A program made the translations under genes and the position numbers. The notes beneath the pieces are model-generated. The model was not told the DNA's origin and ran no database searches. It saw nothing but the letters and a program-made list of their open reading frames with translations. A stretch of DNA of 64,000 nucleotides from Bacilli bacterium (GTDB lineage Bacteria > Bacillota_I > Bacilli_A > RF39 > UBA660): contig JAFYYX010000001.1 of assembly GCA_017548925.1 (NCBI GenBank), forward strand, positions 959,767 through 1,023,766. The letters are read 5' to 3'. Shown in pieces: positions 7,072 through 58,635 of the stretch (position 1 is its first letter; every line of letters begins with the position of its first letter).

Positions 7072-9177
7072 TTAATTTATTTTTGTAATTATCGCGTATC
7101 CATTTCCGGTTTTAGCTTTTTGTGGCGTAGGATCTGAAACAGCTTGATTAATCTTATATGTGTATGTACTTGGATTTGTATTTTCTGTACAGTTATAACA
7201 ATACATTGCGGCATTTGTTAAATTAGCTATATAGCCTGATCCACCAGCACCTGATGCATCAACGCCTGCACCACCGCCGTAGAAGCCTCCGCCTCCAGCG
7301 CCACCGTTGACACAAGTTTCCCATTCAGGTGAGTTACCAGCATATCCAAATCCACCATTCAAAATAGGCAAAAGTACTTCTTGAGCATAATTAGTTCCAC
7401 CAGTTCCGCCGGCTGTTTGTGATCCACCTGTTGGATAAACCATAAATCCTGTATCAGTTCTATAACTATATCCTGATACACCATTGATTCCGCCTCCGGA
7501 GCCGCCATCTCCAAAATACCAATTAACACTGTTAAAAGCTCCACCACCGCCTCCGGCCACGATTAAGATATCATTCTTATTTTTAGTTTCATCTAAATCT
7601 TTAAGTTGGCCAGAAACTTTAGCGATAGATGTTGCACCACCTCCAGATGTACCCCATCTATTTGAATCATTATTACAAGCAGTGCTTCGTCCGCTTCCAC
7701 CACCATTATATCCACCAGCAATATTTCCAGTAGCTTTAACTCCAGTTCCTTGTCCACCAACATTAATATATAGCTTAGTACCTTTTGTTAAATTAATTTC
7801 TCCAACAGAGTATGCTCCATACCCACCAGTATATCCATTAGCAGATCCACCTTGTGCACCCCATACTTCAAGTTTGTATGTGCCTGTTTTTGATACAGTA
7901 AATTTTTGTTCACCATTAGTAAAAGAAAATTCAGTAACGTTACTATCAGGTTCGATATCTGGAGAATATGTTATTTTAACATATCCATTACCTTTTTTAG
8001 CACATTTAGATTGCGGATCATCTTCAGAACATGTCACTGATAGAGTTTTTATATTAGCCACATTAGATGTAGAACAGTTATAACAGTACATAGCAGCATT
8101 ATAAAGTTTACTATTACCTATATAGCCTGATCCGCCACCAGTACCTCTATGATGTGCAGAACCTCCACCATAATATCCTGATCCGCCACCAGATGAATAA
8201 GTAGTTGATGTGCCTCCAATACCAAAAGCTCCTGAGACACCACTTGACCCTGCACTTCCACCAGTCGATTGATTTCCGGAACCTGCGCAAGTATAAGAAG
8301 TATTACTATTACATTGTGAAGTTCCTATATATCCTCCACCATTTCCACCGTTAGCACTATATGATGTTCCATTAGTGTGATAATAAGCTCCTCCACCACC
8401 TCCGGCTACAATTAGGATTTTGTTTACGTTACTAGAAAGTGAAGATAACAAACCAGAAACTAATGCTACATGTGTAGCTCCTCCACCGCCTGAAGTAATA
8501 TTATTTTGGTCTCCTGTATATACTATAGAACCTCCACCACCATTATAGCCTCCGTTACAATTAGAAGTTATACATTCTGACTCACCTTGACCACCAACAT
8601 TGATATATAATCTATCACCTTTTTTTAAATCAACATAGCCAACAGAATATGCACCATATCCGCCAATATATGAATCATTTGCATTTCCACCTTGTGCTCC
8701 CCATGCTTCAATCTTATAAGTACCGGAAATATTCACAGTAAATACTTCTTCAGATCCCTTATAATCAAATTCTTTATTAACAAAAAAATCATTACAATTC
8801 ATTTTTTCAACAGAAGCTGTTTTACCATCTATTATTATCGCAGAATATTCATCATACATTAAACAGCCATAAGAAACTTCATAATCGCTAAGTGTTAATG
8901 AACCTTTTCTTGGTTTTTCCCCAGATATCTTAATTTCTGTTTTATTTAAGTCTCTAACTTGGTAAGTACCTTTTTCCATATCTTCACCAATATTTTGAGA
9001 TAGAGCTGCAACACCATTAACTGCTTTAATATAATTATTAGCATTAACTTCAACAGAATTCTTTTTAGCTTGTTTTACTCTTGAGTTAACAACATTTATT
9101 GCTATTAAAACAATAACAAGTAAAACAACTAATACAGCAAGTATTTCTACTAAAGTAAATCCTTTTTTATTCTTCAT
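7072..9177 (-). CDS. modular type IV pilin-like protein with two glycine-rich (ALK/LTK GRD-like) modules (array gene A)
   Basis: MKNKKG|FTLVEILAVLVVLLVIVLIAI (class III signal, Glu at +5). Cys pair YGCLMYD..KMNC. Two modules carry WGAQGG, YINVGGQG, GGYNGGG, GGGAT, ILIVAGGGGG and GGGSGYI, each capped by MYCYNC..GNGY(V/A)xIT. Start is taken at the second ATG (the ORF track begins 9 nt upstream). Confidence 0.85.
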   Translation of the reverse strand: MKNKKGFTLVEILAVLVVLLVIVLIAINVVNSRVKQAKKNSVEVNANNYIKAVNGVAALSQNIGEDMEKGTYQVRDLNKTEIKISGEKPRKGSLTLSDYEVSYGCLMYDEYSAIIIDGKTASVEKMNCNDFFVNKEFDYKGSEEVFTVNISGTYKIEAWGAQGGNANDSYIGGYGAYSVGYVDLKKGDRLYINVGGQGESECITSNCNGGYNGGGGSIVYTGDQNNITSGGGGATHVALVSGLLSSLSSNVNKILIVAGGGGGAYYHTNGTSYSANGGNGGGYIGTSQCNSNTSYTCAGSGNQSTGGSAGSSGVSGAFGIGGTSTTYSSGGGSGYYGGGSAHHRGTGGGSGYIGNSKLYNAAMYCYNCSTSNVANIKTLSVTCSEDDPQSKCAKKGNGYVKITYSPDIEPDSNVTEFSFTNGEQKFTVSKTGTYKLEVWGAQGGSANGYTGGYGAYSVGEINLTKGTKLYINVGGQGTGVKATGNIAGGYNGGGSGRSTACNNDSNRWGTSGGGATSIAKVSGQLKDLDETKNKNDILIVAGGGGGAFNSVNWYFGDGGSGGGINGVSGYSYRTDTGFMVYPTGGSQTAGGTGGTNYAQEVLLPILNGGFGYAGNSPEWETCVNGGAGGGGFYGGGAGVDASGAGGSGYIANLTNAAMYCYNCTENTNPSTYTYKINQAVSDPTPQKAKTGNGYAIITKIN

Positions 9178-9272
9178 AGATATCATATCCTACTCTACTA
9201 TTAAATATATCATTTATTAGGTTATTTAACAATAAAAAAACTTAAACAAAAATTTATTGTTTAAGTTATATT
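9178..9272 (-). promoter_or_regulatory. conserved intergenic cassette: terminator of gene B plus promoter and RBS of gene A
   Basis: Minus strand: hairpin ACTTAAACAA-N7-TTGTTTAAGT plus U-run (9233-9266), then TTGTTA-N17-TATATT with TG at -15/-14, then AGAGTAGGAT before the ATG. Confidence 0.65.
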
Positions 9273-10577
9273 TTATACATTAACAAGAGATATCTTTACG
9301 TATCCATTACCTTTTTTAGCACAGCTTGAATTTGCTGTTTCCTCTGCACAATCTACAGAAGATGTTTTAGTATCAGGACTATTAGATTCAGTGCAACCAT
9401 AGCATTTCATTTCTTTACTAGAAAGTAAACTATTACCTATATAGCCTGAGCCTCCTCCACCTGGTGCATGCCATGCAGAACCGCCACCATAGTAGCCTCC
9501 GCCGCCACCGGCGTAGCAGTTACTAGTTTGGTTAGATGTAAAATTTGATCCCTTGCCAAAACTACCATCACTTGGTGGGTTATCACTTCTAGAACTTGTA
9601 CCATCACTGGAACATGCGGTAAATGAACCCGCAGCTGTTTGAGATCCACCATTACCATAGTTATAACATGTACTATTTGCAGAAACTCCATTGCCAGCTA
9701 TATATCCACCGCCAGATCCACCACGACCACTATATGATGGATAAGAAGAGTGTGTTGAAGAACCTCCGCCGCCACCAGCAACAATTAAAATATCACTTAA
9801 ATTACTAGATAGTGTGCTTAAAAGACCTGAAGTAGTAGCAATTGATGTTGCTCCTCCACCTCCGCCATGAGAACTATTATTATCCCATTTAGTTGCAAAA
9901 CCACCACCATTATATCCAGTATCACTTGAATATGTTACAGTACCAGAAGACTGAGCATAATTTACAGATGTACCTTGGCCACCAACATTTATATAAAGTT
10001 TGTCTCCCTTATTTAAGTGTATTTTACCAACTGAATATCCACCATATCCACCCATATTATAATATGAATTATAGTAGCTATCTCCACCTTGTGCTCCCCA
10101 TGCCTCAAGTTTATAAGTTCCAGTTTTTTGAGCAGTAAATATTTGCTCACTACCTGTATAATCAAAATTATATGCAACTTCTGCTTCAAAAGAATTACAA
10201 TTTCCTTTTTCTACATTAGTTATATTACCATCACTATAGGATACATAAAACTTACTATATACTAAACATGCCGCTTTAATTTTTCCATTTTCAATTTGAA
10301 CAGCACCACTATTTGGATATGTACCTGATAATTTAATTCCAAGTTCATTAAGTTCAGATGTTGAATATAATCCATCTGTTAAAGTACCAGTTACCCTTGA
10401 TAAACCTGCATTTTCTTCAACAGCTTTAAAAAAAGTAAGTGCATTTGCTTTTACTGAATTTTCATTATTTTTTTTCATAACACTACTTATTTTATTAATT
10501 GCTAAAACAGTAATAATTACTAAAACTACTATAACAGCTAAAAGTTCTATTAAAGTAAAACCTTTTTTATTCTTCAT
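9273..10577 (-). CDS. modular type IV pilin-like protein with one glycine-rich module (array gene B)
   Basis: MKNKKG|FTLIELLAVIVVLVIITVLAI. Cys pair AACLVYS..KGNC. YKLEAWGAQGG, YINVGGQG, GYNGGG, GGGGATSIA, ILIVAGGGGG, GGGGGYYGGG, GGGGSGYI. Cap is MKCYGCTES..VDC..SSCAKKGNGYVKIS. Confidence 0.85.
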   Translation of the reverse strand: MKNKKGFTLIELLAVIVVLVIITVLAINKISSVMKKNNENSVKANALTFFKAVEENAGLSRVTGTLTDGLYSTSELNELGIKLSGTYPNSGAVQIENGKIKAACLVYSKFYVSYSDGNITNVEKGNCNSFEAEVAYNFDYTGSEQIFTAQKTGTYKLEAWGAQGGDSYYNSYYNMGGYGGYSVGKIHLNKGDKLYINVGGQGTSVNYAQSSGTVTYSSDTGYNGGGFATKWDNNSSHGGGGGATSIATTSGLLSTLSSNLSDILIVAGGGGGSSTHSSYPSYSGRGGSGGGYIAGNGVSANSTCYNYGNGGSQTAAGSFTACSSDGTSSRSDNPPSDGSFGKGSNFTSNQTSNCYAGGGGGYYGGGSAWHAPGGGGSGYIGNSLLSSKEMKCYGCTESNSPDTKTSSVDCAEETANSSCAKKGNGYVKISLVNV

Positions 10578-10674
10578 AAGTATCATTTCCTACTCTAAAA
10601 TAATATTATCATTTATTAATAATTTTAACAATAAAAAAACTTAAACAACTAATTGTTATTTAAGTTATTTTTTA
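10578..10674 (-). promoter_or_regulatory. conserved intergenic cassette: terminator of gene C plus promoter and RBS of gene B
   Basis: Minus strand: imperfect hairpin plus U-run, then TTGTTA (10626-10631) -N17- TAATAT (10603-10608) with an extended -10 TG, then AGAGTAGGAAATGATACTTATG. Confidence 0.65.
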
Positions 10675-12918
10675 TTAATTTACAAAAGTAATTTTAGCGT
10701 ATCCGTTGCCTTTTTTAGCACAGTTTGAATTTGCTATATCATCGGTGCAATCAACAGAAGTTGTTTTTGTATCTTCATCAGTTGATTCAGTACAGTTATA
10801 GCATTTCATTTCTTTATTAGAAAGTAAACTGTTAGCAATATATCCAGAACCGCCTCCAGCACCTCCCCAAACGCCTGCAGAACCGCCACCATAAAAGCCG
10901 CCGCCGCCTCCAGCACCGCCGCCACCATCAGAAGCATTAGAAAGTGTTGAGTTAGCTCCTTGTCCAAATGTTCCAGAACTTGGTGTTGCACGATTAAATC
11001 TTTCATAGGAACCTCCAGAACTTTGAGTTCCACCTAGACCTTTTGAACCATCACCATTTGGTGGATTTTGACCATTTACACCGACATATCCACCACCTGA
11101 TCCACCTTTAGCATGAGATGAACCATCACTTGCTCCACCACCACCGCCGCCAGCTACTATAATAATTTTATTAATAGAAGATTCAAGAGTAAATAAAGTC
11201 CCTGACATTGTTGCAACTGAAGTAGCTCCTCCACCTGCACCATTATATGTTGAGCCGTCAACCCAATGATAAGAGTTTCCACCACCATTATAGCCACCTG
11301 TTGCATCTTGAGTTTTAGATGTAGTTGAACCTCCAGCTCCTCCAACATTGATATAAAGTTTATCACCAACATTTAGACTAATTGTTCCAGTTGAATAGCC
11401 ACCATATCCACCAGTTCCAGTATCATTATTATATCCAGATCCACCTTGTGCTCCCCATACTTCTAGTTTATAAGTACCATTTTTAGGAGCAATAAATTTT
11501 TGTTCAGTTCCGGTATAAGTATATTCTTCATTTAAAGATGAATAAACAGGTTTTTCATCTAAATAATATGCATCATATATAGCAGCATATCCATTTCCTT
11601 CATTACCAGTCATAGTAGATAAATTATCATGAGTTGGCATTTCTTCTTTACCAGATTTCATAGTAATTTTTCTGAATTTTTTTCCACTATAATGATATGA
11701 ACATTCTACGTTTGTAGTACCATTACTACAACCTGATTTCGGACTATTTGATTCACTAGATGCTACTGCAACACATCCTTTATACCCAGATATATAACTC
11801 GAACCACCAGCGCCAGGTTTCCAGTTACCTGAAGCACCTCCCCAGTAGCCGCCACCAGCGCCACCATACGAATTAGCTCCAGTTGCTCCATATCCAAAGC
11901 CGCCAATGTATGTATTTTCATACCACGTTCTATTCCATTCATTAACAGATTGCCCACCAGTTGTTTGCGTTCCTCCTGATGGAGTAAGTGAAGAATAACC
12001 ATCAAGTGATCCATAATAATAACTAGATCCACCAGTTAAAGCACCACCATATCCACCACCAGCAGGAGCTTGTACTCCAGATGAACCAGTAGCTGAATAT
12101 ATACCAGCACCACCGGCAGCAACCATTATTCTTGATCTTAAAGAGGTAGCATTATTCCAAGCACCGCTAACAAGTCTAACATCAGTTGCTCCTCCACCTG
12201 ATCCATTTTTTTGATTATAATTTGTTCTTGATACATTTCCAGCACCACCGCCATTATAACCACCAGCTATAGATCCAGTACCATCATTATATGTTCTTGA
12301 AGAACCAGCTCCACCTACATAAATATAAAGTTCATCACCTTTATCAAGATGAATTATACCTGATGTGTAAGCGCCTTTTCCACCTGCAGCATCATCAGAA
12401 GATCCACCTTGAGCACCCCATAAATCGATTTTATAATCTCCATCATGAGGGGCAACAAACTCTTGATAATCTCCAGTATATTCATATGTTTTTAACGGTG
12501 AAACATCACAGCTAAAACTCTCACTTTTACACTTACCCTTAGAAATACGCTTTACACCATTATTCTCATATTCAACTTTATATTTTCCGTAATCTAAACA
12601 AGCATTAACAACTTTATAATCATTTAAACAAACCATTGCATCATCAGGTTTAGTTCCAGATACTTTAATATCATTATTATCAAGGGCATATATATTAAAT
12701 AAACCTGCTTTAAATATTTTACTATCTAAAACATTAAGACCAGCTTTATCATTAATAGCTTTAATATAACTTAGTGCACTAGCTTCCATTGCTTTTTCTT
12801 TAGATCTTTTAGTGTATGTTCTAATTATATTTATAGCAATTAACATAATAATTATTAATACAACTACTACAGCTAAAAGTTCTACTAAAGTAAATCCTTT
12901 TTTATTCTTTTTGTTCAT
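10675..12918 (-). CDS. modular type IV pilin-like protein with two glycine-rich modules of different subtypes (array gene C)
   Basis: MNKKNKKG|FTLVELLAVVVVLIIIMLIAI. Cys pair NACLDYG..KGKC. Module 1 has YKIDLWGAQGG..ATDVRL..RIMVAAGGAG and cap SGYKGCVAV..HYSGKKF..MKSGKEEMPTHD..GNEGNGYAAI. Module 2 has YKLEVWGAQGG..ATSVA..IIIVAGGGGG and cap MKCYNCTES..CAKKGNGYAKIT. Start at 12918 follows AAAGGTAGG; the ORF-track extension upstream is probably not translated. Confidence 0.85.
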   Translation of the reverse strand: MNKKNKKGFTLVELLAVVVVLIIIMLIAINIIRTYTKRSKEKAMEASALSYIKAINDKAGLNVLDSKIFKAGLFNIYALDNNDIKVSGTKPDDAMVCLNDYKVVNACLDYGKYKVEYENNGVKRISKGKCKSESFSCDVSPLKTYEYTGDYQEFVAPHDGDYKIDLWGAQGGSSDDAAGGKGAYTSGIIHLDKGDELYIYVGGAGSSRTYNDGTGSIAGGYNGGGAGNVSRTNYNQKNGSGGGATDVRLVSGAWNNATSLRSRIMVAAGGAGIYSATGSSGVQAPAGGGYGGALTGGSSYYYGSLDGYSSLTPSGGTQTTGGQSVNEWNRTWYENTYIGGFGYGATGANSYGGAGGGYWGGASGNWKPGAGGSSYISGYKGCVAVASSESNSPKSGCSNGTTNVECSYHYSGKKFRKITMKSGKEEMPTHDNLSTMTGNEGNGYAAIYDAYYLDEKPVYSSLNEEYTYTGTEQKFIAPKNGTYKLEVWGAQGGSGYNNDTGTGGYGGYSTGTISLNVGDKLYINVGGAGGSTTSKTQDATGGYNGGGNSYHWVDGSTYNGAGGGATSVATMSGTLFTLESSINKIIIVAGGGGGGASDGSSHAKGGSGGGYVGVNGQNPPNGDGSKGLGGTQSSGGSYERFNRATPSSGTFGQGANSTLSNASDGGGGAGGGGGFYGGGSAGVWGGAGGGSGYIANSLLSNKEMKCYNCTESTDEDTKTTSVDCTDDIANSNCAKKGNGYAKITFVN

Positions 12919-13021
12919 AATAGGTAACCTACCTTTACTATATATAAATAATATCATTTATTAATAAATTTAACAATTAAAAAACTTAAGTAAATTATAT
13001 TACTTAAGTTTTTAAATATTA
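12919..13021 (-). promoter_or_regulatory. conserved intergenic cassette: terminator of gene D plus promoter and RBS of gene C
   Basis: Minus strand: hairpin ACTTAAGTAA-N6-TTACTTAAGT plus U-run, then TTGTTA-N17-TATTAT with TG at -15/-14, then AAAGGTAGG. Confidence 0.65.
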
Positions 13022-14305
13022 TTAAACGCCAAGTGAAAATAACATTGTTATTCTAACATAACCATTACCTTCGTTACCAGTCATAGCTTCATTAGTATAT
13101 GATGGCATTGATTCATTACCAGCTTTCATTTCAGGATTTAAAAATACTATTCCTGATGAGTGAGATGCACAACCACTATATCCAGATATATAACTAGATC
13201 CTCCACCAGCAGCATCAATATGTTCAGAACCAGCTCCACCATAGTAGCCACCGCCACCACCAGTAGATAATCCTGAGTTACCACCAGATCCACCTTTACC
13301 AAATGAACCATTTGCAATACTATTTCTTGTATTTACCCCACCAGCAGTTTGAGTAGCTCCACCACCTGGACCATAACCATTATTTGATTGAGCATTTTGT
13401 CCTTTTAATCCTCCGGCATATCCTCCGCCTGATCCATTAAAGCCACCACCACCTCCGGCAGCAACCATAACTCTTGAATTTAGACCATTTTCAGAGTCAA
13501 CAACTAAATCTTCTTCAGATGGTTGGGATGAGAAAATTCTAATATCGGTTGCTCCTCCACCAGAACCGTAAGTTCTACCACAGCAGCTTTGTCCATTAGT
13601 ATATCCACCACCATTATAACCGCCTGCTATATATTCAGAAACACTTTCTCTAGTTGCTCCACCTTTGCTTCCAATATAAAGATATACTTTTTGATTTTTT
13701 TGTAAAACAATTTCACCAGAAGTATATGCTCCATTACCTACACCAATAGGATTATTACCACCTTTTGCACCCCATAGTTCTATTTTGTATTTACCCTTTA
13801 CAGGCGCAGTAAATAATTGATAATTATTTGATAAATATGAATATTCATATTTATTAAGATCTAAATTAGGATATATGTTTTCATTATAATATGCGTTCAT
13901 TTCCGCTAAATCACTAAAACAATTTCCTTCAACTACAGTATCAGTATCTTCAACATTAGTTACTTTATATTCATCATAAACTAAACAATAACTTATAATG
14001 TCAAAATCATTAATAAGAACATATCCAGAGTCAGGAGTTCTACCTGAAAGTTTTATTCCCATGTCTTTAAGATCATCAACAGAATACACACCACTATCAA
14101 GTAACTCATTATCTGCAACATCTTCTCCAGCTTTATCTTTAACAAGTTTCATATAGCTAATTGCATTAGCACTAATAGCTTTCTTTTTTGCTGTTAAAGA
14201 TGAATTTCTGATTTTACTCATTGCAATTAAAAAGACTATTATTAAAACTACAACAACTGCTATAAGTTCTACTAAAGTAAAACCTTTTTTATTTATTCTT
14301 TTCAT
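13022..14305 (-). CDS. modular type IV pilin-like protein with one glycine-rich module, subtype 2 (array gene D)
   Basis: MKRINKKG|FTLVELIAVVVVLIIVFLIAM. Cys pair SYCLVYD..EGNC. YKIELWGAKGG, LYIGSKGG, GGYNGGG, GGGATDIRI, RVMVAAGGGGG, GGGGGYYGGAG, GGGSSYISGYSGC, cap ..MTGNEGNGYVRIT. Confidence 0.8.
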   Translation of the reverse strand: MKRINKKGFTLVELIAVVVVLIIVFLIAMSKIRNSSLTAKKKAISANAISYMKLVKDKAGEDVADNELLDSGVYSVDDLKDMGIKLSGRTPDSGYVLINDFDIISYCLVYDEYKVTNVEDTDTVVEGNCFSDLAEMNAYYNENIYPNLDLNKYEYSYLSNNYQLFTAPVKGKYKIELWGAKGGNNPIGVGNGAYTSGEIVLQKNQKVYLYIGSKGGATRESVSEYIAGGYNGGGYTNGQSCCGRTYGSGGGATDIRIFSSQPSEEDLVVDSENGLNSRVMVAAGGGGGFNGSGGGYAGGLKGQNAQSNNGYGPGGGATQTAGGVNTRNSIANGSFGKGGSGGNSGLSTGGGGGYYGGAGSEHIDAAGGGSSYISGYSGCASHSSGIVFLNPEMKAGNESMPSYTNEAMTGNEGNGYVRITMLFSLGV

Positions 14306-14399
14306 ATGTAGATACCTACCTTTATTATTACATAATAAATATAACATTTATTTAAATATTTAACAATTAAAAAAATAGACAAATAAATTTGTCTATTTA
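14306..14399 (-). promoter_or_regulatory. conserved intergenic cassette: terminator of gene E plus promoter and RBS of gene D
   Basis: Minus strand: hairpin ATAGACAAA-N4-TTTGTCTAT plus U-run, then TTGTTA-N17-TATATT (TG at -15/-14), then AAAGGTAGG. Confidence 0.65.
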
Positions 14400-15659: not shown

Positions 15660-15762
15660 AGATATCATATCCTACTCTAAATTAATATTATCATTTATTA
15701 CTTATTTTAACAATAAAAAAACTTAAATAATTAATTATTATTTAAGTTTTAATTATTAAAAA
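15660..15762 (-). promoter_or_regulatory. conserved intergenic cassette: terminator of gene F plus promoter and RBS of gene E
   Basis: Minus strand: AT-rich hairpin (ACTTAAATAAT..ATTATTTAAGT) plus U-run, then TTGTTA-N17-TAATAT (TG at -15/-14), then AGAGTAGGAT. Confidence 0.65.
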
Positions 15763-16971: not shown

Positions 16972-17066
16972 AGATATCATATCCTACTCTAAAATAATAT
17001 TATCATTTATTGATTATTTTAACAATAATAAAAAACTTAAACAATTAATGTTTAAGTTTTATATTT
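16972..17066 (-). promoter_or_regulatory. conserved intergenic cassette: terminator of gene G plus promoter and RBS of gene F
   Basis: Minus strand: hairpin AACTTAAACA-N6-TGTTTAAGTT plus U-run, then TTGTTA-N17-TAATAT (TG at -15/-14), then AGAGTAGGAT. Confidence 0.65.
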
Positions 17067-18875
17067 TTATTCAATATCATTTCCTTTAGTAAAAGTTCCA
17101 GTTCCTGAATTAGCATAAAACTTTTTAGATATTGTATCACATAAACCTATAGTTCCTTCAGTTTTGTGATAGCAAGGGACAAGATCATTAACAAGACTAG
17201 TTCCATTTGTAATTTTTACATTATAAAGTTTTAATGAAGAAAACGAGTCATAATTTCCTTTGTTATTATTTGCAAAAATAGCGTATCCAGGATTACTATC
17301 TATATTTAATGTGCCTAGATTTGATGATATTTCCGAACTACCAAAAATATATTTGTTGTTACCATTATAGTTAAGTTTAATATCACATATACCAGGACAA
17401 CTTGCAGAAACTGAAGTTGATGTTTCAGCCCAATTATTCCAACCATAATTAACTTGATTATTTTCAAATGATGAATACATTCTTGAATTACCATTACCCA
17501 TTGAACCAAATATGCAACCCGATGTTGAAGAAGAAGTAAACAACACTTTAGCTAAAACTCCATATTGATTTGTTGGCACAATGTCAGTTGCAATATACTG
17601 AGTTCCAGATGATTCAATATACTCTACAAATTGATAATCTTCTAAAGGATCTTCAGGATAAAAAATATTTGCATTATATGTGATTCTAGCAAAACCATGA
17701 TCTTTTTTTGCACATTCAGGTGTTGGATCAGACTCAGCACAATTAACTGATATAGTATTTGTAGATTCTATATTAGATGTAGTGCAATTATAACAGTACA
17801 TAGACTTTTCAGATAATTTTGAGTTACCTATATAACTAGAACCTCCAGCACCTGAACCAACAATTGCGTCATTATATGATCCGCCACCACCACCATAGTA
17901 GCCGCCGCCACCGCCGCCACCGTGATTATTATATTGACTTCCACCTAAACCAAACGTACCATCGGTTCCACTACCAGCGCCAGATGCACCATGTCCACCT
18001 TCAGTTTGTGTTCCACCAGTTGCAACAGTAAAAGAAGCTGATCCATTATAGCGATAGTAACCTCCAGGCATTCCAGATATTCCTCCAGCTGCTCCACCAT
18101 TAGAACCACCATTGTATTTATCAGAACCACCGCCGCCTCCGGCAACAATTAATACTTTATCAACATTACCAGATAGTGTAGATAGTAAGCCAGATTTAGT
18201 AGCTATTGAAGTAGCTCCTCCGCCACCTCGAGCATTATAATTAGATCCTGCTACTCCACCACCGTTATATCCTCCAGAAGTACTAGTTGAAGTGCCACCT
18301 ACATTAATGTATAATTTATCTCCACTTTTTAAATAAATCATTCCAGTAGAATACGCCCCATAACCACCAATTGTAGAATATGATCCACCTTGAGCACCCC
18401 ATACTTCTAAAATGTACTCACCACTAAATGGAACAGTAAATACTTCTTCTTTATTTTTATAAGTAAAATTATAACTTATAGGTAAGTCTTCACATTCATC
18501 CCTAGTAATATCTGAAAAATTTCCATCATCGTAAGTTATATTGTATCCACTATAAACAAAGCAAGCAAATTTTACTTCTGAATTTGAAAACACTACATAA
18601 CCACTATCAGGTTTGGTACCAGAAATCTTAACTCCTTCTGAATCAAGTTCAAAAATAGAAAGTTTTCCACTTTCATAGTTATCATCATTAATAGTTTTTT
18701 CTGATATAAAACCATTAACAGCTTTAACATATAAACCTGCATTAGCTACAATAGTTTTATCTCTTGCATCTTTAGTAGATTTATTAACTTTATTAATAGC
18801 AATAAAAACAATAATAATTAATATAATTACTACTGCCATAAGTTCAACTAAAGTAAAACCTTTTTTATTCTTCAT
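17067..18875 (-). CDS. modular type IV pilin-like protein with one glycine-rich module plus an extra ~200-aa non-glycine C-terminal domain (array gene G)
   Basis: MKNKKG|FTLVELMAVVIILIIIVFIAI. Cys pair FACFVYS..RDEC. YILEVWGAQGG, LYINVGG, GGYNGGG, GGGGATSIA, VLIVAGGGGG. Cap is MYCYNCTTS..VNC..PECAKKDHGFARIT. It then continues with YQFVEYIESSGTQYIATDIVP...FYANSGTGTFTKGNDIE (approx. 17067-17672). Confidence 0.85.
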   Translation of the reverse strand: MKNKKGFTLVELMAVVIILIIIVFIAINKVNKSTKDARDKTIVANAGLYVKAVNGFISEKTINDDNYESGKLSIFELDSEGVKISGTKPDSGYVVFSNSEVKFACFVYSGYNITYDDGNFSDITRDECEDLPISYNFTYKNKEEVFTVPFSGEYILEVWGAQGGSYSTIGGYGAYSTGMIYLKSGDKLYINVGGTSTSTSGGYNGGGVAGSNYNARGGGGATSIATKSGLLSTLSGNVDKVLIVAGGGGGSDKYNGGSNGGAAGGISGMPGGYYRYNGSASFTVATGGTQTEGGHGASGAGSGTDGTFGLGGSQYNNHGGGGGGGYYGGGGGSYNDAIVGSGAGGSSYIGNSKLSEKSMYCYNCTTSNIESTNTISVNCAESDPTPECAKKDHGFARITYNANIFYPEDPLEDYQFVEYIESSGTQYIATDIVPTNQYGVLAKVLFTSSSTSGCIFGSMGNGNSRMYSSFENNQVNYGWNNWAETSTSVSASCPGICDIKLNYNGNNKYIFGSSEISSNLGTLNIDSNPGYAIFANNNKGNYDSFSSLKLYNVKITNGTSLVNDLVPCYHKTEGTIGLCDTISKKFYANSGTGTFTKGNDIE

Positions 18876-18995
18876 AAGTATCATATCCTACTCTAAAATA
18901 AATATATCATTTATTTTGCAATTTAACAATTAAAAAACTAAAACAAAAAATAATTGTTTTAGTTTAGAACTTATTAATTAAATCTAATAGTTTTT
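18876..18995 (-). promoter_or_regulatory. conserved intergenic cassette: terminator of gene H plus promoter and RBS of gene G
   Basis: Minus strand: hairpin CTAAAACAA-N10-TTGTTTTAG plus U-run, then TTGTTA-N17-TATATT (TG at -15/-14), then AGAGTAGGAT. Confidence 0.65.
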
Positions 18996-20273
18996 TTATG
19001 AACCAATATATGTTATTTTAGCGTAGCCATCGCCTTCATTACCAGTCATAGAACCATTTCCATCATGTGTAGGCATTTCTTGAGCGCCTGATTTCATAAC
19101 TCCATTAGTAAATTTTTTACCAGAGTAATGAATTGAACATGTATTATCTAGAGTATCTTCAACACATGTTTGTCCATTTGAGTCAAGTCTTGGACTATTA
19201 GATGCATCACTTATAACTGCAACACATCCTGTGTAACCAGAAATAAATGAAGATCCTCCTCCACCAGTTCTACCATAACCGTTAGATCCGCCCCAATAGC
19301 CTCCGCCGCCTCCACCGCCGAAGCCATCTGTGTTAACTTTAGGTCCAGAGCCAAATAATCCACGATAAGTTTCGCTTAGTGAAGAACTATATGATGTTTG
19401 TTTACCACCACCACCATTATATGAATCACTACCATAGCTTCCACTACCAGTTCCACCTTTTAAATTACCACCAACACCTGGTGATTTAGTGTAAGAAGTA
19501 GTTGAAAATGATCCTCCGCCACCTCCGGCAACCATAATTCTTGATCTTAATGATTCAGGATCACTCCATTCACCATTAACGGTTCTAACATCAGTAGCAC
19601 CGCCACCACCATATGAATAAGATGAACTATTATTTCCAGAATAGCCACCGCCATTCCAGCCTCCTACATTTGTTAAAGATTGTATTGTTGGCCCTGCTTC
19701 ACCTACATATACGTATAAAATAGTATTTTTAGCTAATTCTATCTCACCATAAGTGTAGCCACCTTTGCCGCCTTCACCACCTTGAGCACCCCATAATTCA
19801 AATGTATACTTACCATTAAATGGTGCTTTAAAAGTTTGAACAGTTTTTGTAAATTCAAAAGGATATTCCATTTTGAAATTACTACATTGGCCTTTACGAG
19901 GATCAGTTAAATTTCCATTTGAATACTGAATATAATAATCTTCATATACTAAACATGAATTAGTTACTTCAGCATTAGTAAAAAATACATAACCAGAATC
20001 AGGTTTAGTGCCTGATATTTTTAATCCTTCAGAATCAAGTTGAGAAACACTTAAAAGTCCAGAATCATAATTAGCATCTGTAATACTTTTTTCTGATATT
20101 AAAGCATTAGCTGCTTTAATATATAAACCTGCATTTGCTTTAATGGTATTATCTAGAGTTTCATCAACATTTCTTTTAATAATATTATAGGCAATTAAAA
20201 TGATAATAATTAAAACTACCATAACAGCAAGAAGTTCAACTAAAGTAAAACCTTTTTTAATATTTTTCTTCAT
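18996..20273 (-). CDS. modular type IV pilin-like protein with one glycine-rich module, subtype 2 (array gene H)
   Basis: MKKNIKKG|FTLVELLAVMVVLIIIILIAY. Cys pair NSCLVYE..KGQC. YTFELWGAQGG, LYVYVGEAG, GGWNGGG, GGGGATDVRT, RIMVAGGGGG, GGGGGGGYWGG, GGGGSSFISGYTGC. Cap is CSIHYSGKKF..MKSGAQEMPTHD..MTGNEGDGYAKIT. Confidence 0.85.
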   Translation of the reverse strand: MKKNIKKGFTLVELLAVMVVLIIIILIAYNIIKRNVDETLDNTIKANAGLYIKAANALISEKSITDANYDSGLLSVSQLDSEGLKISGTKPDSGYVFFTNAEVTNSCLVYEDYYIQYSNGNLTDPRKGQCSNFKMEYPFEFTKTVQTFKAPFNGKYTFELWGAQGGEGGKGGYTYGEIELAKNTILYVYVGEAGPTIQSLTNVGGWNGGGYSGNNSSSYSYGGGGATDVRTVNGEWSDPESLRSRIMVAGGGGGSFSTTSYTKSPGVGGNLKGGTGSGSYGSDSYNGGGGKQTSYSSSLSETYRGLFGSGPKVNTDGFGGGGGGGYWGGSNGYGRTGGGGSSFISGYTGCVAVISDASNSPRLDSNGQTCVEDTLDNTCSIHYSGKKFTNGVMKSGAQEMPTHDGNGSMTGNEGDGYAKITYIGS

Positions 20274-20347
20274 AGATATCATATCCTACTCTAAAATAAT
20301 ATTATCATTTATTAAAAATTTTAACAATAAGAAAACTCAAACAACTT
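20274..20347 (-). promoter_or_regulatory. conserved intergenic cassette: terminator of gene I plus promoter and RBS of gene H
   Basis: Minus strand: hairpin ACTCAAACAACT-N4-AGTTGTTTGAGT (its 5' arm overlaps the end of gene I) plus U-rich tail, then TTGTTA-N17-TAATAT (TG at -15/-14), then AGAGTAGGAT. Confidence 0.6.
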
Positions 20348-21652
20348 TTAGTTGTTTGAGTTGGATTCTTCTATTAGTGTAATTCTAACGTAACCATTAC
20401 CTTTTTTAGCAGTATTATTAATAGGTTTTTCAGAAACTCTGTCAGTTGAAATAGTATATACATTCTTAACATCAGTTTCTCTACATTCATAGCAGTACAT
20501 TCTAGCTTCAGTTAAATTTTCATTTCCGATATAACCAGATCCACCTGATGCACCAACAAACATACCATTTCCACCACCATAAAGGCCACCGCCTCCACCA
20601 GCAGAGTTTGTATAACCACCAGTTCTAGTAGTTTGTCCACCTTGACCATATGAACCATTAATCATACCAGATTCAGTACCTGTTCTTCCAGCATAACCAC
20701 CTAAAGTTTGTGTACCTCCTAAAGCTACATCTCCTTTATATAATCCATACTGCACAGTTTTAGATCCACCAATATATCCACCGCCAGATCCACCATTTTC
20801 ATAATTATAATCACTATCACTGCAGTGTCTTCTAATAGAGCCACCGCCTCCACCAGCAATTATTAATATATCATCTATCTCTAAATTTTTAATTAATCCA
20901 GATGAATACGCTATTGATGTAGCTCCACCGCCAGAGCCACCATAGTTACCGCAGTTACCAGTCATAGTGTAGGAATCTCCCCCACCATTATAACCACCTT
21001 TATTGGTTCCATTAACAACTTTGTTATAGTCTACTCCTTTACCACCAACGTTAATATATAAAACATCATCTTTATTTAAATTAACAATTGCTTTAGAGTA
21101 TCCTCCATATCCACCAAAATAAGTTTCGTTATAAGATCCACCTTGAGCTCCCCAAACTTCAAGTTTATACTTTCCAGTTTTTTGAACAGTGAATGTTTTT
21201 TCTCTTCCAGAATATTCATCTAGAAAAACGCCTACATCACTATTATAACCTTTTTTAATTTTACAATTTTTAGTATCCATAGAATCAACATCACCATTTT
21301 TAATAATGACACGTCTATCTTTAAATTTTAAACATCCATTAGTTACTCTATTATCTAAAATAACTAAATAACCAGTAAGAGGTTTAGTTCCAGATATTCT
21401 AACACCTAATTCATCTAGCTCTTCATATGTATAATAACCTTCATATAAAGGTTCTAATAAATCAGCATTTTTTAAAAGAATAACATCATTTACAGCTTTA
21501 ATATAACTAAGTGAACTTGCTTTAATAGATTTTTGTTCTGCATTATCCATTGCATCATTAACTTTTGTAACAGCAAGCAAAAAGATTAATATTAAAACTA
21601 TTAATACAGTTAAAAGTTCAACTAGTGTAATACCTTTGTTATTAATTTTCAT
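20348..21652 (-). CDS. modular type IV pilin-like protein with one glycine-rich module, divergent subtype 1 (array gene I, first in transcription order)
   Basis: MKINNKG|ITLVELLTVLIVLILIFLLAV (Ile at +1, Glu at +5). Cys pair NGCLKFK..TKNC. YKLEVWGAQGG, LYINVGGKG, GGYNGGG, GGGATSIA, ILIIAGGGGG, GGGGGLYGGG, SGGSGYI. Cap is MYCYECRET..AKKGNGYVRIT, with two of the four cap Cys lost. Confidence 0.8.
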   Translation of the reverse strand: MKINNKGITLVELLTVLIVLILIFLLAVTKVNDAMDNAEQKSIKASSLSYIKAVNDVILLKNADLLEPLYEGYYTYEELDELGVRISGTKPLTGYLVILDNRVTNGCLKFKDRRVIIKNGDVDSMDTKNCKIKKGYNSDVGVFLDEYSGREKTFTVQKTGKYKLEVWGAQGGSYNETYFGGYGGYSKAIVNLNKDDVLYINVGGKGVDYNKVVNGTNKGGYNGGGDSYTMTGNCGNYGGSGGGATSIAYSSGLIKNLEIDDILIIAGGGGGSIRRHCSDSDYNYENGGSGGGYIGGSKTVQYGLYKGDVALGGTQTLGGYAGRTGTESGMINGSYGQGGQTTRTGGYTNSAGGGGGLYGGGNGMFVGASGGSGYIGNENLTEARMYCYECRETDVKNVYTISTDRVSEKPINNTAKKGNGYVRITLIEESNSNN

Positions 21653-21740
21653 AGATTCATCTACTCTCTACTATTAAAATAATATCATTTAATAAAAATA
21701 ATCACAATAAAAAAACTTATCTATATGATAAGTTTTATTA
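21653..21740 (-). promoter_or_regulatory. cassette upstream of gene I: terminator of the preceding ORF plus promoter and RBS
   Basis: Minus strand: hairpin ACTTATC-N5-GATAAGT plus U-run, then TTGTGA-N17-TATTAT (TG at -15/-14), then AGAGAGTAGATGAATCTATG. Confidence 0.6.
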
Positions 21741-22541: not shown

Positions 22542-22559
22542 TTAATATCAACCCTTTAT

Positions 22560-56911: not shown

Positions 56912-56932
56912 ATTTATTCCCCTTTTCTATTA

Positions 56933-58474: not shown

Positions 58475-58635
58475 AAGAAATCCTCCTTCCCTATTTGACA
58501 TAATTATAACCTATATTCAAGGATATTACATTACTTGATTTACAAGGGTGTATAAAGCAAATGTAAAGCATAATATCTATTTGTATTATTTCAAAATATA
58601 AGTTATAATTTATAAAGTATGAAAGGGTTGCTAAT

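What the first reader, a model, noticed from the sequence alone, without database searches (positions are those of the whole stretch)
7072..21652. Nine-gene tandem array of modular type IV pilin-like proteins carrying ALK/LTK-type glycine-rich (polyglycine-II) domains
Every ORF in this 14.6-kb minus-strand block has the same three-part architecture. (i) A class III signal, M-K-N-K-K-G|F-T-L-V-E, followed by a ~20-residue hydrophobic helix with Glu at +5, which is the substrate signature of prepilin peptidases. (ii) A ~110-130-aa module ending in a conserved Cys...Cys pair (xCLxY-N20-25-C), like the disulfide-bonded D-region of type IV pilins. (iii) One or two ~270-aa glycine-rich modules with an invariant ladder: YK(L/I)E(V/L)WGAQGG, GGYG(A/G)YS, LYINVGGxG, GGYNGGG, GGGAT(S/D)(I/V), (I/V)(L/M)VAGGGGG, GGGGG(Y/F)YGGG, GGGSGYI. 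To my eye this ladder is the signature of the Pfam PF12810 family (Gly_rich / ALK_LTK_GRD). In human ALK/LTK that domain is a lattice of polyglycine-II helices, and a PGII sandwich also forms the receptor-binding tip of T-even-type phage gp38 adhesins. Modular pilins with grafted vWA or lectin modules are known in Streptococcus sanguinis. I know of no characterised case of this glycine-rich domain grafted onto a pilin, nor of an expansion to nine adjacent paralogues (11 GRD modules). Working hypothesis (inference): these are interchangeable adhesive or tip subunits of a type IV pilus or Com-like fibre, with variable loops between the glycine ladders giving different binding specificities. No assembly ATPase, platform protein or prepilin peptidase is encoded in this window. 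The paralogues are clearly diverged at the DNA level, so this is not a recent amplification or an assembly artefact.
Basis: partly seen in the sequence, partly recalled or inferred. Interest (0 to 1): 0.9.

Follow-up and report, generated by a model that had tools for sequence, protein, structure and literature searches.

The report
Pilin array carrying ALK-type glycine-rich domains
A gut or rumen bacterium encodes nine neighbouring pilus-subunit-like proteins, each fused to one or two copies of a glycine-rich binding domain also found in the human ALK receptor and in phage tail regions; this is probably a set of interchangeable adhesins, but no pilus-assembly genes were found in the DNA I could read.

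Summary
Nine minus-strand genes (7072-21652) each encode a short basic leader ending in Gly, then F/I-T-L-V/I-E and a hydrophobic helix. A ~125-aa pilin-like module with a conserved Cys pair follows, then one or two PF12810 (ALK_LTK_GRD) modules, 11 in all (E 1e-31 to 1e-79).

AlphaFold2 (pLDDT 89.9) predicts a 52-residue N-terminal helix, a four-stranded sheet and a domain whose 21 best PDB matches are all ALK/LTK ligand-binding domains.

New points:
- Each gene has its own hairpin terminator, extended -10 promoter and ribosome-binding site.
- Related metagenome contigs hold arrays at the same genomic position with at least 10-11 genes.
- About 95 clusters (50% identity) share the fusion.
- The same pilin module carries other cargo domains elsewhere.
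- Protein 7 has a third module.
- Both this third module and the GRD are common in phage contigs, beside tail genes.

Best reading: these are modular type IV pilins displaying phage-fibre-like receptor-binding modules (confidence 0.6).

Caveats: no prepilin peptidase, ATPase or platform gene lies in about 80 kb around the array or beside five related loci, and the rest of the genome could not be reached. The pilin-PF12810 architecture was already listed, uncharacterised, in a 2021 survey of modular pilins. I class it as a new variant of a known kind.

The parts
20348..21652 (-). Gene 9 (first in transcription order), 434 aa: leader MKINNKG|ITLVE, pilin module, one subtype-A GRD
   Evidence: PF12810 E 1.7e-37. 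No Pfam N_methyl hit (I at +1), only weak ComGC/GspG-type N-terminal hits. Likely orthologues elsewhere (similar N-termini) also have G|I or G|L.
18996..20273 (-). Gene 8, 425 aa: MKKNIKKG|FTLVE, pilin module, one subtype-B GRD
   Evidence: PF12810 E 2.1e-45, N_methyl 27.2 bits. Start codon set from the ribosome-binding site and the called gene.
17067..18875 (-). Gene 7, 602 aa: MKNKKG|FTLVE, pilin module, one subtype-A GRD, plus a third ~200-aa C-terminal module (about 17067-17670)
   Evidence: PF12810 E 1.5e-31 over residues 154-403. The tail has no Pfam, PHROG or PDB-sequence hit. It is conserved in the L003 and L005 arrays and in 217 viral-contig stretches.
15763..16971 (-). Gene 6, 402 aa: MKNKKG|FTLVE, pilin module, one subtype-A GRD (the protein modelled)
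   Evidence: PF12810 E 4.1e-36, N_methyl 30.3 bits. AF2 pLDDT 89.9, pTM 0.83, helix 12-63 and strands 72-119. Top 21 Foldseek PDB hits are all ALK/LTK.
14400..15659 (-). Gene 5, 419 aa: MNKKG|FTLVE, pilin module, one subtype-B GRD
   Evidence: PF12810 E 4.1e-44, N_methyl 22.0 bits.
13022..14305 (-). Gene 4, 427 aa: MKRINKKG|FTLVE, pilin module (longest, 139 aa), one subtype-B GRD
   Evidence: PF12810 E 3.2e-51, N_methyl 22.3 bits. Start.
10675..12918 (-). Gene 3, 747 aa: MNKKNKKG|FTLVE, pilin module, subtype-B GRD followed by subtype-A GRD
   Evidence: PF12810 E 9.2e-79 with two stretches, N_methyl 27.1 bits. Subtypes.
9273..10577 (-). Gene 2, 434 aa: MKNKKG|FTLIE, pilin module, one subtype-A GRD
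   Evidence: PF12810 E 3e-35, N_methyl 28.6 bits.
7072..9177 (-). Gene 1 (last), 701 aa: MKNKKG|FTLVE, pilin module, two subtype-A GRDs
   Evidence: PF12810 E 2.1e-73 with two stretches, N_methyl 27.2 bits.
21653..21740 (-). Upstream cassette of gene 9: hairpin plus T-run, promoter TTGTGA-17-TGATATTAT, ribosome-binding site
   Evidence: (site 21707-21679).
20274..20347 (-). Intergenic cassette 9/8: terminator hairpin AACTCAAACAAC...GTTGTTTGAGTT plus T-run, promoter TTGTTA-17-TGATAATAT, ribosome-binding site AGTAGGA
   Evidence: Terminator scan hit 20362-20334 with 13 pairs. Promoter pattern.
18876..18995 (-). Intergenic cassette 8/7: hairpin terminator, TTGTTA-17-TGATATATT, ribosome-binding site
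   Evidence: (18929-18901).
16972..17066 (-). Intergenic cassette 7/6: hairpin terminator, TTGTTA-17-TGATAATAT, ribosome-binding site
15660..15762 (-). Intergenic cassette 6/5: hairpin terminator, TTGTTA-17-TGATAATAT, ribosome-binding site
14306..14399 (-). Intergenic cassette 5/4: hairpin terminator, TTGTTA-17-TGTTATATT, ribosome-binding site GGTAGGT
   Evidence: (14366-14338).
12919..13021 (-). Intergenic cassette 4/3: hairpin terminator, TTGTTA-17-TGATATTAT, ribosome-binding site GGTAGGT
   Evidence: (12976-12948).
10578..10674 (-). Intergenic cassette 3/2: hairpin terminator, TTGTTA-17-TGATAATAT, ribosome-binding site
9178..9272 (-). Intergenic cassette 2/1: hairpin terminator, TTGTTA-17-TGATATATT, ribosome-binding site

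Best explanation
The block is a family of nine modular type IV pilins. SHOWN: each protein has a short basic leader ending in Gly, then F/I-T-L-V/I-E and about 20 hydrophobic residues. Next comes a ~125-aa module predicted as a 52-residue helix packed on a four-stranded sheet and closed by a conserved Cys pair. One or two ALK/LTK-type TNF-like/glycine-rich domains follow almost without a linker, and protein 7 has a further module. Each gene is its own transcription unit, with a sigma-A-type extended -10 promoter and a hairpin terminator. INFERRED: a prepilin peptidase encoded elsewhere in the genome cuts after the Gly. The hydrophobic helix is then extracted from the membrane by a type IV filament machine (type IV pilus or Com type), and the pilin module is built into or onto the tip of the filament. 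The rigid glycine-rich module is thereby held away from the cell. Its conserved glycine scaffold carries variable loops that bind a ligand, as proposed for the homologous TNF-like/glycine-rich tip of cyanophage Pam3 tail fibre gp24 and as shown for the polyglycine tip of phage S16 gp38. Nine diverged paralogues with 11 GRDs of two subtypes would give the cell a repertoire of binding specificities. The ligands are unknown; candidates are plant or host glycans or the surfaces of other microbes.
For: Domain calls: PF12810 in 9 of 9 and N_methyl in 8 of 9; TIGR02532. A profile of the family matches solved ALK, SCD-2 and LTK GRDs (E 5.8e-11 to 1.4e-4) and S. sanguinis pilin PilE1 (E 1.2e-5). The AF2 model has pLDDT 89.9 and pTM 0.83, with helix 12-63, strands 72-119, and long non-helix, non-strand stretches at high pLDDT in the Gly-rich part. 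Foldseek: the top 21 PDB hits are all ALK/LTK ligand-binding domains, E 1.7e-10 to 6.9e-6. Selection on the signal: G-1, +1 hydrophobic and E+5 are kept in all nine paralogues at 33-57% identity. They are kept in 26 of the 27 array genes read in four related contigs; the 27th is cut off at a contig end. Nearly all of the 141 newly listed representatives at 50% identity keep them too, with 5 exceptions. The pilin module is a reusable carrier: the same full-length module is fused to DUF6273, Flg_new and unknown domains in other proteins. This is the design described for modular pilins. The cargo is a binding module elsewhere: Pam3 gp24 TNF-like/glycine-rich domains are described as receptor-recognising and ALK-like, and the S16 gp38 polyglycine domain binds OmpC. 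There are 83 BFVD hits with E <= 1e-3, including virion structural and minor tail proteins. A phage protein with three GRDs sits directly after a tail protein gene. The third module of protein 7 also occurs in at least 217 viral stretches next to tail-fibre genes. The window also encodes cell-wall functions (LytR-CpsA-Psr with PASTA, LtaS, VanY), so the host is a walled monoderm in which a filament would be needed to reach beyond the wall.
Against: No prepilin peptidase, T2SSE ATPase, T2SSF platform or PilM/N/O gene lies in the window or in the ~14 kb of flank read beyond its two ends. None lies within 10 kb of the related arrays L003, L005 and L009 or the single gene L008. In S. sanguinis the modular pilins sit inside the pil locus. 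Foldseek with the pilin module alone gives no significant hit; the best is Thermus PilA4 at E 0.46, TM 0.37-0.39. Sequence similarity to known pilins is limited to the alpha1 helix. No small major pilin gene accompanies the array. A 28-85 kDa cargo on every subunit is hard to fit along a filament. Most close GRD homologues (97 of the top 120) carry a different, non-pilin N-terminus, so the GRD does not need a pilus. TM-scores to ALK are moderate (0.33-0.48 on the target). I had no coordinates, so the polyglycine-II lattice was not measured directly. Binding is inferred by analogy only.
Confidence: 0.6

Rival explanations
1. Surface display without a pilus. The class III signal and hydrophobic helix serve only as a membrane anchor, cleaved or not. 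The GRD proteins would form a cell-envelope layer, or sit on very short pseudopilus stubs, rather than being subunits of an extended filament. This would resemble archaeal sugar-binding proteins that carry class III signals.
For: No assembly machinery lies near the array in this or four related contexts. Nine strongly promoted, individually terminated genes suggest abundant proteins rather than low-abundance minor pilins. Orthologous-looking two-GRD proteins in other Firmicutes use a different N-terminal hydrophobic anchor. One pilin-type gene (L008) sits after nrdD/nrdG, much like a non-pilin-type gene (L090), which suggests the anchors are interchangeable.
Against: Strict conservation of Glu+5 and of the whole alpha1 plus beta-sheet module with its Cys pair is not needed for a simple anchor. 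From established knowledge, class III signals in bacteria are known only for type IV filament subunits.
Confidence: 0.22
2. Structural rather than adhesive role. The GRD pilins would be building blocks of a thick decorated fibre or matrix, for example for aggregation, biofilm scaffolding or protection, with the polyglycine lattice giving rigidity rather than ligand specificity.
For: The glycine scaffold is the most conserved part: 24 of 39 invariant columns are Gly. Every gene has a strong promoter of its own. No ligand is known for any bacterial PF12810 protein.
Against: Divergence is concentrated in the loops between the glycine runs, with many indels. There are two subtypes and an extra phage-shared module, a pattern typical of specificity-determining adhesins.
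Confidence: 0.1
3. Phage-derived or defence-related cluster. The array would be a remnant of prophage tail-fibre genes, or a decoy or receptor-mimic set interacting with phages.
For: The GRD and the third module are both frequent in viral contigs next to tail genes. PHROG families 7388, 1589 and 5811 match the GRD.
Against: No phage structural, integrase or lysis genes lie in the window. The array sits at a conserved chromosomal position between housekeeping genes in several genomes. Every member carries a class III signal, which phage fibres lack. tblastn against 50,697 phage records found nothing.
Confidence: 0.04

Closest known systems
Modular type IV pilins PilB (vWA module) and PilC (lectin module) of Streptococcus sanguinis (Raynaud et al. 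2021, PMC8179133; Shahin et al. 2023, PMC9934059)
   Same: A class III signal, a small pilin module and a bulky effector module joined by a very short linker, in a monoderm. The effector is a domain also used for binding in eukaryotes. The same 2021 survey lists IPR012902-PF12810 architectures.
   Different: The effector here is an ALK-type TNF-like/glycine-rich domain, present once or twice, sometimes with a third module. There are nine to eleven or more tandem paralogues, each with its own promoter, and they lie outside any pil locus. No experimental data exist.
Cyanophage Pam3 tail fibre gp24 (PDB 7YFW; PMC9608196) and the phage S16 gp38 polyglycine adhesin tip
   Same: An N-terminal alpha-helical attachment or oligomerisation element is followed by a TNF-like plus glycine-rich domain. 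That domain has a conserved Gly stem and variable distal loops proposed to bind the receptor. gp24 superposes on C. elegans ALK. The GRD fold is found in 83 BFVD viral proteins.
   Different: gp24 is a trimeric fibre docked to a baseplate and needs a chaperone. Here the carrier is a pilin with a prepilin-peptidase site. The direct Foldseek match of my model to 7YFW is not significant (E 0.51). gp38's polyglycine sandwich is not PF12810 by sequence (my knowledge).
ALK/LTK/SCD-2 extracellular TNF-like/glycine-rich (TG) ligand-binding domain (PDB 7LIR, 7LRZ, 7MZY, 7NX1 and others)
   Same: Homologous by HMM (PF12810), by profile against PDB sequences (E about 1e-9 to 6e-11 for ALK and SCD-2) and by fold search (E to 1.7e-10).
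   Different: Sequence identity is only 15-20% and TM-scores are 0.33-0.48. There is no EGF-like, transmembrane or kinase part and no ALKAL-type ligand in bacteria. The bacterial domains have Cys-rich C-terminal tails of two kinds.
Tandem arrays of small pilin paralogues in low-GC Firmicutes (for example locus L011 here; Clostridial pilA families)
   Same: Several adjacent pilin genes with near-identical N-termini lie away from the machinery genes.
   Different: Those pilins are 139-149 aa and carry no cargo domain.

Membership tests
Type IV pilin (type IV filament subunit) | Class III signal: a short positively charged leader ending in Gly(-1), a hydrophobic +1 residue, Glu at +5 and about 20 hydrophobic residues | tested here: met
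   Present in 9 of 9 proteins by direct reading and alignment. PF07963 passes its cut-off in 8 of 9. TIGR02532 reaches its cut-off in 8 of 9. Protein 9 has Ile at +1 and fails the HMM cut-offs.
Type IV pilin (type IV filament subunit) | Pilin fold: a ~50-residue N-terminal alpha1 helix packed against an antiparallel beta-sheet | tested here: inconclusive
   AF2 predicts helix 12-63 followed by four strands at pLDDT above 90, both in the whole protein and in the isolated module. Foldseek with the module alone gives no significant hit; the best are Thermus PilA4 (E 0.46, TM 0.37-0.39) and C. difficile PilW at rank 5.
Type IV pilin (type IV filament subunit) | C-terminal disulfide-bonded region (common but not universal) | tested here: met
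   A Cys pair 22-25 residues apart is conserved in 9 of 9 proteins and in over 90% of 24 homologues. The bond itself cannot be tested here.
Type IV pilin (type IV filament subunit) | Processing by an A24 prepilin peptidase encoded in the same genome | not testable with these tools
   None lies in the window, its flanks or the related loci. The single genome-contig scan did not recover the source genome.
Type IV pilin (type IV filament subunit) | Assembly ATPase (PilB/ComGA) and platform protein (PilC/ComGB) in the genome, and polymerisation into a filament | not testable with these tools
   Absent from about 80 kb around the array and from within 10 kb of L003, L005, L008 and L009. Generic pilins with the same N-terminal pattern do sit in full type IV pilus loci elsewhere (L065, L085).
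Modular pilins (sensu Raynaud et al. 2021) | An N-terminal IPR012902 motif and pilin module, plus a C-terminal domain not specific to type IV pilus biology, joined by a short linker | tested here: met
   The GRD's first strand begins about 4 residues after the second Cys. The same carrier module is found with DUF6273, Flg_new and other cargo.
Modular pilins (sensu Raynaud et al. 2021) | Encoded within the pilus gene cluster, as for the characterised examples PilB and PilC | tested here: not met
   The array lies between DUF402/unknown genes and a radical-SAM/GH31 pair, with no pil or com genes.
PF12810 ALK_LTK_GRD (TNF-like/glycine-rich domain) | HMM match above the gathering score | tested here: met
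   Whole-protein scores of 110.7-265.3 bits against a cut-off of 24.5, covering nearly the whole 243-position model in 11 modules.
PF12810 ALK_LTK_GRD (TNF-like/glycine-rich domain) | Similarity to the solved ALK, LTK and SCD-2 structures | tested here: met
   The family profile matches PDB sequences at E 5.8e-11 (7LIR) to 1.4e-4 (LTK). The Foldseek top 21 hits are all ALK/LTK at probability 1.00, with TM 0.33-0.48 on the target.
PF12810 ALK_LTK_GRD (TNF-like/glycine-rich domain) | A lattice of polyglycine-II helices | tested here: inconclusive
Indirect support comes from long non-helix, non-strand segments at pLDDT 90-98 in the Gly runs and from homology to structures that have the lattice.
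Phage TNF-like/glycine-rich tail-fibre adhesins (Pam3 gp24 type) | A glycine-rich receptor-binding tip on a fibre protein encoded among tail genes | tested here: not met
   There is no phage context in the window, and the match to 7YFW is not significant (E 0.51). The domain is nevertheless shared with many viral proteins, so it resembles such an adhesin in likely function without being a member.

The most novel reading that the evidence does not exclude
The array is a repertoire of pilus-borne, phage-fibre-like receptor-binding heads. The window carries nine genes, and related genomes at least ten to eleven. The heads would be assembled from modules exchanged with phage tail fibres: the GRD and the third 'YIESSGTQYI' module. 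A small-genome, low-GC gut or rumen Firmicute (longest contig 1.04 Mb, 25% GC) would use them to attach to specific partner cells or substrates. Differential use of the individually promoted genes would give antigenic or specificity variation. This would be a cellular counterpart of phage host-range cassettes, mounted on a type IV filament.
Probability: 0.12. Interest if true: 0.8.

Novelty: new variant of a known kind. Interest (0 to 1): 0.55.

Why it matters
Modular pilins are a recognised way of making type IV filaments versatile, but only vWA and lectin modules have been studied. This is a large, well-defined family: about 95 clusters at 50% identity, in arrays of 9-11 or more genes. Its cargo is the ALK-type glycine-rich domain, a fold with no studied function in bacteria and one that phages appear to use for receptor recognition. 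If the proteins are assembled on filaments, three things follow. They would show that pilus and phage-fibre binding modules come from a common pool. They would offer a tractable bacterial system for studying how a polyglycine-II scaffold presents variable loops. And they would point to how uncultured low-GC gut or rumen bacteria attach to their substrates or partners. The finding also bears on the evolutionary origin of the ALK/LTK ligand-binding domain.

Tried and rejected
The organism could therefore not be named, and its genome could not be searched for pil or com genes.
2. Walking outward from the window: the left flank (L006) and right flank (L251) contain no machinery genes. One look-up failed because the ORF start differed from the called gene.
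3. The metagenome-contig scan with the pilin-module profile mostly returned generic pilins. Only one pilin-GRD locus (L012) came back, and 15 of 80 loci had T2SSE ATPases beside unrelated pilins. It showed only alpha1-level homology to pilins of bona fide type IV pilus loci.
4. Single-sequence phmmer against the PDB found only alpha1 hits; a profile was needed to reach ALK.
5. tblastn of protein 6 and of the third module against 50,697 phage records found nothing, probably because of the low-complexity filter and divergence. Profile and pattern searches of IMG/VR and BFVD did find relatives.
6. Foldseek with the isolated pilin module gave nothing significant.
7. NCBIfam found no family for the alternative, non-pilin N-termini of GRD homologues. 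I considered a SipW/TasA-type signal from memory but did not confirm it, so I dropped the idea.
8. Literature: PF12810 appears in one unrelated fungal paper, and 'polyglycine' with 'pilin' gave nothing relevant. De Munck et al. 2021 was not held.
9. I rejected a recent amplification or assembly artefact, because DNA identity is 60-80% and the array recurs in 7 contigs. I rejected an operon, because each gene has its own terminator and promoter. I rejected a prophage, because there are no phage genes and the chromosomal position is conserved.
10. I ran no further search on a PilB query. Only the top 120 hits are listed, so the chance of catching the same genome was very small.

Full report
OBSERVATION. 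The region 7072-21652 holds nine consecutive minus-strand ORFs of 405-760 aa. Pfam finds PF12810 (ALK_LTK_GRD) in all nine, with E-values from 1.5e-31 to 9.2e-79 against a 24.5-bit cut-off. Proteins 1 and 3 have two matched stretches each, so there are 11 glycine-rich modules. PF07963 (N_methyl) passes its cut-off in eight of nine. NCBIfam TIGR02532 reaches its cut-off in eight of nine; all matches to ComGC, ComGD, ComGE or GspG equivalogs are N-terminal only and far below their cut-offs. A six-frame scan for the prepilin motif finds it, followed by a long hydrophobic stretch, at exactly these nine places; the one other match in the 64 kb is an antisense frame broken by stop codons. An alignment of the N-terminal modules shows invariant G-1, T+2, L+3, E+5 and a first Cys, with a second Cys 22-25 residues later in every protein. 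An alignment of the 11 GRDs has 39 invariant columns, 24 of them Gly, separated by segments that differ in sequence and length. The GRDs form two subtypes with different Cys-containing C-terminal tails: A in 1a, 1b, 2, 3b, 6, 7 and 9; B in 3a, 4, 5 and 8. Pilin modules are 33-57% identical, GRDs 37-57%, and DNA repeats only 60-80%. The array recurs in at least seven independent contigs.

CORRECTIONS AND ADDITIONS TO THE ANATOMY. Each intergenic spacer contains the same cassette: an AT-rich hairpin followed by a T-run, then TTGT[TG]A, 17 bp, TGnTAnnAT (an extended -10 promoter), then a ribosome-binding site (A/G)GTAGG(A/T) 8-10 nt before an ATG. That ATG is the second in-frame ATG in six genes and a further internal ATG in genes 3 and 4. 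The leaders are therefore 5-8 residues long (MKNKKG|F and similar). The resulting protein lengths (701, 434, 747, 427, 419, 402, 602, 425, 434) equal the gene calls in the public assembly. The block is thus nine monocistronic units, not an operon. Protein 9, the first gene, has G|I and fails the N_methyl HMM; its likely orthologues in other genomes (similar N-termini) also have I or L at +1. Protein 7 carries a third ~200-aa module.

STRUCTURE. AlphaFold2 on protein 6 with a 35-sequence alignment gives mean pLDDT 89.9 and pTM 0.83. It predicts a helix at 12-63, four strands between 72 and 119, and then a domain with a few strands and long stretches that are neither helix nor strand yet have pLDDT 90-98. 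The 21 best Foldseek PDB matches are all ALK, LTK or SCD-2 ligand-binding (TNF-like/glycine-rich) domains (E 1.7e-10 to 6.9e-6, probability 1.00, TM 0.33-0.48 on the target). Nothing else is significant. A profile of the family also matches the sequences of those structures (E 5.8e-11 to 1.4e-4), and through its N-terminus it matches S. sanguinis PilE1 (E 1.2e-5). I had no coordinates, so the polyglycine-II lattice is inferred from homology and from the secondary-structure pattern rather than measured. The isolated pilin module is again predicted confidently (pLDDT 88.7; helix 9-61 plus four strands). Foldseek gives no significant match for it; the best is Thermus PilA4 at E 0.46, with C. difficile PilW at rank 5. 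The pilin fold is therefore supported by topology but not by a statistical structure match.

CONTEXT. The window is 25% GC. It encodes PFOR, LtaS, LytR-CpsA-Psr with PASTA, VanY, a dockerin protein and a small heat-shock protein. A spore-coat Coat_F gene too short for my ORF scan is annotated in the same region of the public assembly. This is a walled, probably spore-forming low-GC Firmicute assembled from metagenomes, with a longest contig of 1.04 Mb. Related contigs carry sample labels (XIEF21, STEW19, ASCI21) that I cannot resolve with the tools. No ORF of 120 aa or more hits a type IV pilus or Com machinery family, and no T2SSE Walker-A or A24 peptidase motif occurs in any frame of the window or of loci L001-L009. 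About 7 kb beyond each end of the window also lacks them.

DISTRIBUTION. Protein 6 has at least 3996 homologues at E <= 1e-5 among the 8000 candidates scored. Of the best 120, only 23 carry the class III signal. Most are ~680-700-aa two-GRD proteins with a different hydrophobic N-terminus. One such protein is a single-copy gene after nrdD-nrdG-dut in a sporulating Firmicute. A pilin-type two-GRD gene (L008) also follows nrdD/nrdG, which suggests that N-terminal anchors have been swapped. Arrays at the same genomic position as this one occur in related contigs:
- L003 has at least 11 GRD genes ending at the same radical-SAM/GH31 junction.
- L005 has at least 10, starting after the same DUF402 and unknown-gene pair.
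- L009 has at least 7.
Every array gene read through its N-terminus keeps G|F-[TS]-L-[VI]-E. Best matches between arrays are only 43-72% in the pilin module, so one-to-one orthology is blurred and the family turns over quickly. A profile of the nine pilin modules, scored against 1.84 billion representatives, finds 94 proteins at E <= 1e-30 and 2846 at E <= 1e-10. The best ~95 are pilin-GRD fusions. From about E 1e-25 the same full-length module carries other C-terminal domains (DUF6273 in 8, Flg_new, unknown), and a few entries are module-only proteins of 130-137 aa. The module is therefore a general carrier.

THE CARGO ELSEWHERE. The model matches 83 predicted viral structures at E <= 1e-3, including virion structural and minor tail proteins of cyanophages, Caulobacter phages and giant viruses. 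PHROGs 7388, 1589 and 5811, all of unknown function, match at E 1e-25 to 1e-30. In IMG/VR at least 99 stretches encode the GRD. One 906-aa phage protein with three GRDs lies directly after a 1060-aa tail protein gene. [quoted passage not shown] The polyglycine tip of phage S16 gp38 binds OmpC through variable loops. The third module of protein 7 is conserved in the L003 and L005 arrays. It has no Pfam, PHROG or PDB-sequence match. It is nevertheless encoded over its full length in at least 217 viral-contig stretches, in proteins that follow tail-fibre or minor-tail genes. Both cargo modules are thus shared with phage tail regions.

INTERPRETATION. The best-supported reading is that these are modular type IV pilins. 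A prepilin peptidase would cleave after Gly, and a type IV filament machine would assemble the pilin module, displaying the GRD as a binding head. What is shown is the architecture, the predicted folds, the homology to ALK-type domains, the strict conservation of the processing signature across a large diverged family, the carrier nature of the pilin module, the independent transcription units, and the sharing of cargo modules with phage tail-region proteins. What is inferred is cleavage, assembly into a filament, position at the tip or along the shaft, and ligand binding. The main weakness is that no machinery genes were seen near the array here or in relatives, unlike the S. sanguinis paradigm, and the rest of the genome was out of reach. 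The main rival is display on the membrane or a short stub without an extended pilus. It is favoured by the strong individual promoters, the absence of a nearby major pilin, and the existence of GRD homologues with non-pilin anchors. A purely structural role and a phage-derived origin are less likely.

COMPARISON AND NOVELTY. Modular pilins are a known kind. The 2021 survey that defined them lists IPR012902-PF12810 (2 proteins) and IPR012902-PF12810x3 (1 protein) among 264 architectures, and a PilY1 with PF12810, without comment. I found no paper that studies a bacterial PF12810 protein or links polyglycine domains to pilins. New here are:
- the size of the family;
- the 9-11-gene arrays at a conserved genomic position, with one promoter per gene;
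- the two GRD subtypes and the third module;
- the link of both cargo modules to phage tail regions.
I rate this a new variant of a known kind, with moderate to good interest (0.55).

Noticed in passing
window 17067-17670 (C-terminus of protein 7); L003 13562 and 15491 genes; L005 15768 gene: An unannotated ~200-aa module (motifs YIESSGTQYI, LVPC, GLCD, FY.N.GTG.F) follows the GRD in one gene of this array, two genes of the L003 array and one of L005. It has no Pfam, PHROG or PDB-sequence hit. At least 217 IMG/VR viral stretches encode it over its full length, in proteins placed just after tail-fibre or minor-tail genes.
   Followed up: partly
P0013-P0120; L090-L092 10001-12043; L008 1478-3592: Most close GRD homologues are two-GRD proteins of about 680-700 aa with a different hydrophobic N-terminus (for example MKKTTILIIVVLFMVIGYAAYNTTINIYGNG) and no class III signal. 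One such gene and one pilin-type gene both sit just after nrdD/nrdG, which suggests the N-terminal anchors were swapped.
   Followed up: partly
P0208-P0261: The same full-length pilin carrier module (N-terminus MKNKKGFTLIELLAIIVILAIIAVITVPII...) is fused to non-glycine cargo in many proteins of 250-790 aa: DUF6273 in 8 of 49, Flg_new in one, and unknown domains in the rest. This is a large uncharacterised family of modular pilins.
   Followed up: partly
window 26168-28072 and 28140-29753 (minus strand): Two adjacent, unusually long sigma-70 family proteins (634 and 537 aa) have regions 2, 3 and 4 in the C-terminal half and N-terminal extensions of about 150-200 aa.
   Followed up: no
window 42929-50458 (minus strand): A 2509-aa protein has at least 12 Listeria-Bacteroides (Flg_new) repeats, a Big_2 domain and a C-terminal Y_phosphatase3 tyrosine-phosphatase-family domain. 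This is an unusual pairing of surface repeats with a phosphatase domain.
   Followed up: no
window 55541-58501 (minus strand): A dockerin type I protein with an SH3_3 domain (56933-58501) lies next to a cadherin-like beta-sandwich protein (55541-56911). No cohesin-bearing scaffoldin is present in the window.
   Followed up: no
window 5073-6005 (minus strand) versus L003 19689-22109: A RhuM/Fic-domain gene lies between the radical-SAM gene and the GH31 gene here, but is absent from the same junction in the related contig L003. It looks like a lineage-specific insertion next to the array.
   Followed up: no
window 21741-23123 (minus strand); L005 5510-6882: A 266-aa protein with no family match and a DUF402 protein sit directly upstream of the first array gene, both here and in L005. 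Whether they are functionally linked to the array is unknown.
   Followed up: no
L002 4102-7345 and 10001-13177 (uncultured Mollicutes UMGS171): In this MAG a 1058-aa protein carries a class III signal (MKKKKGFTLVELL), and elsewhere a 105-aa pilin-like gene lies directly upstream of a 974-aa protein whose C-terminal region resembles that of the 1058-aa protein. They have no GRD and no nearby machinery. This is further evidence that giant pilin-like proteins are common in reduced-genome gut Firmicutes and Mollicutes.
   Followed up: no
L011 1839-3657: Four tandem small pilin paralogues (139-149 aa) related to the carrier module lie in a low-GC contig without machinery genes. Tandem pilin arrays away from pil loci seem to be a habit of this group.
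   Followed up: no
window 7484-8083 (+ strand): A 199-aa Pro-rich ORF lies antisense to gene 1. It is a shadow of the Gly codons (GGN read as NCC) and not a gene.
   Followed up: yes
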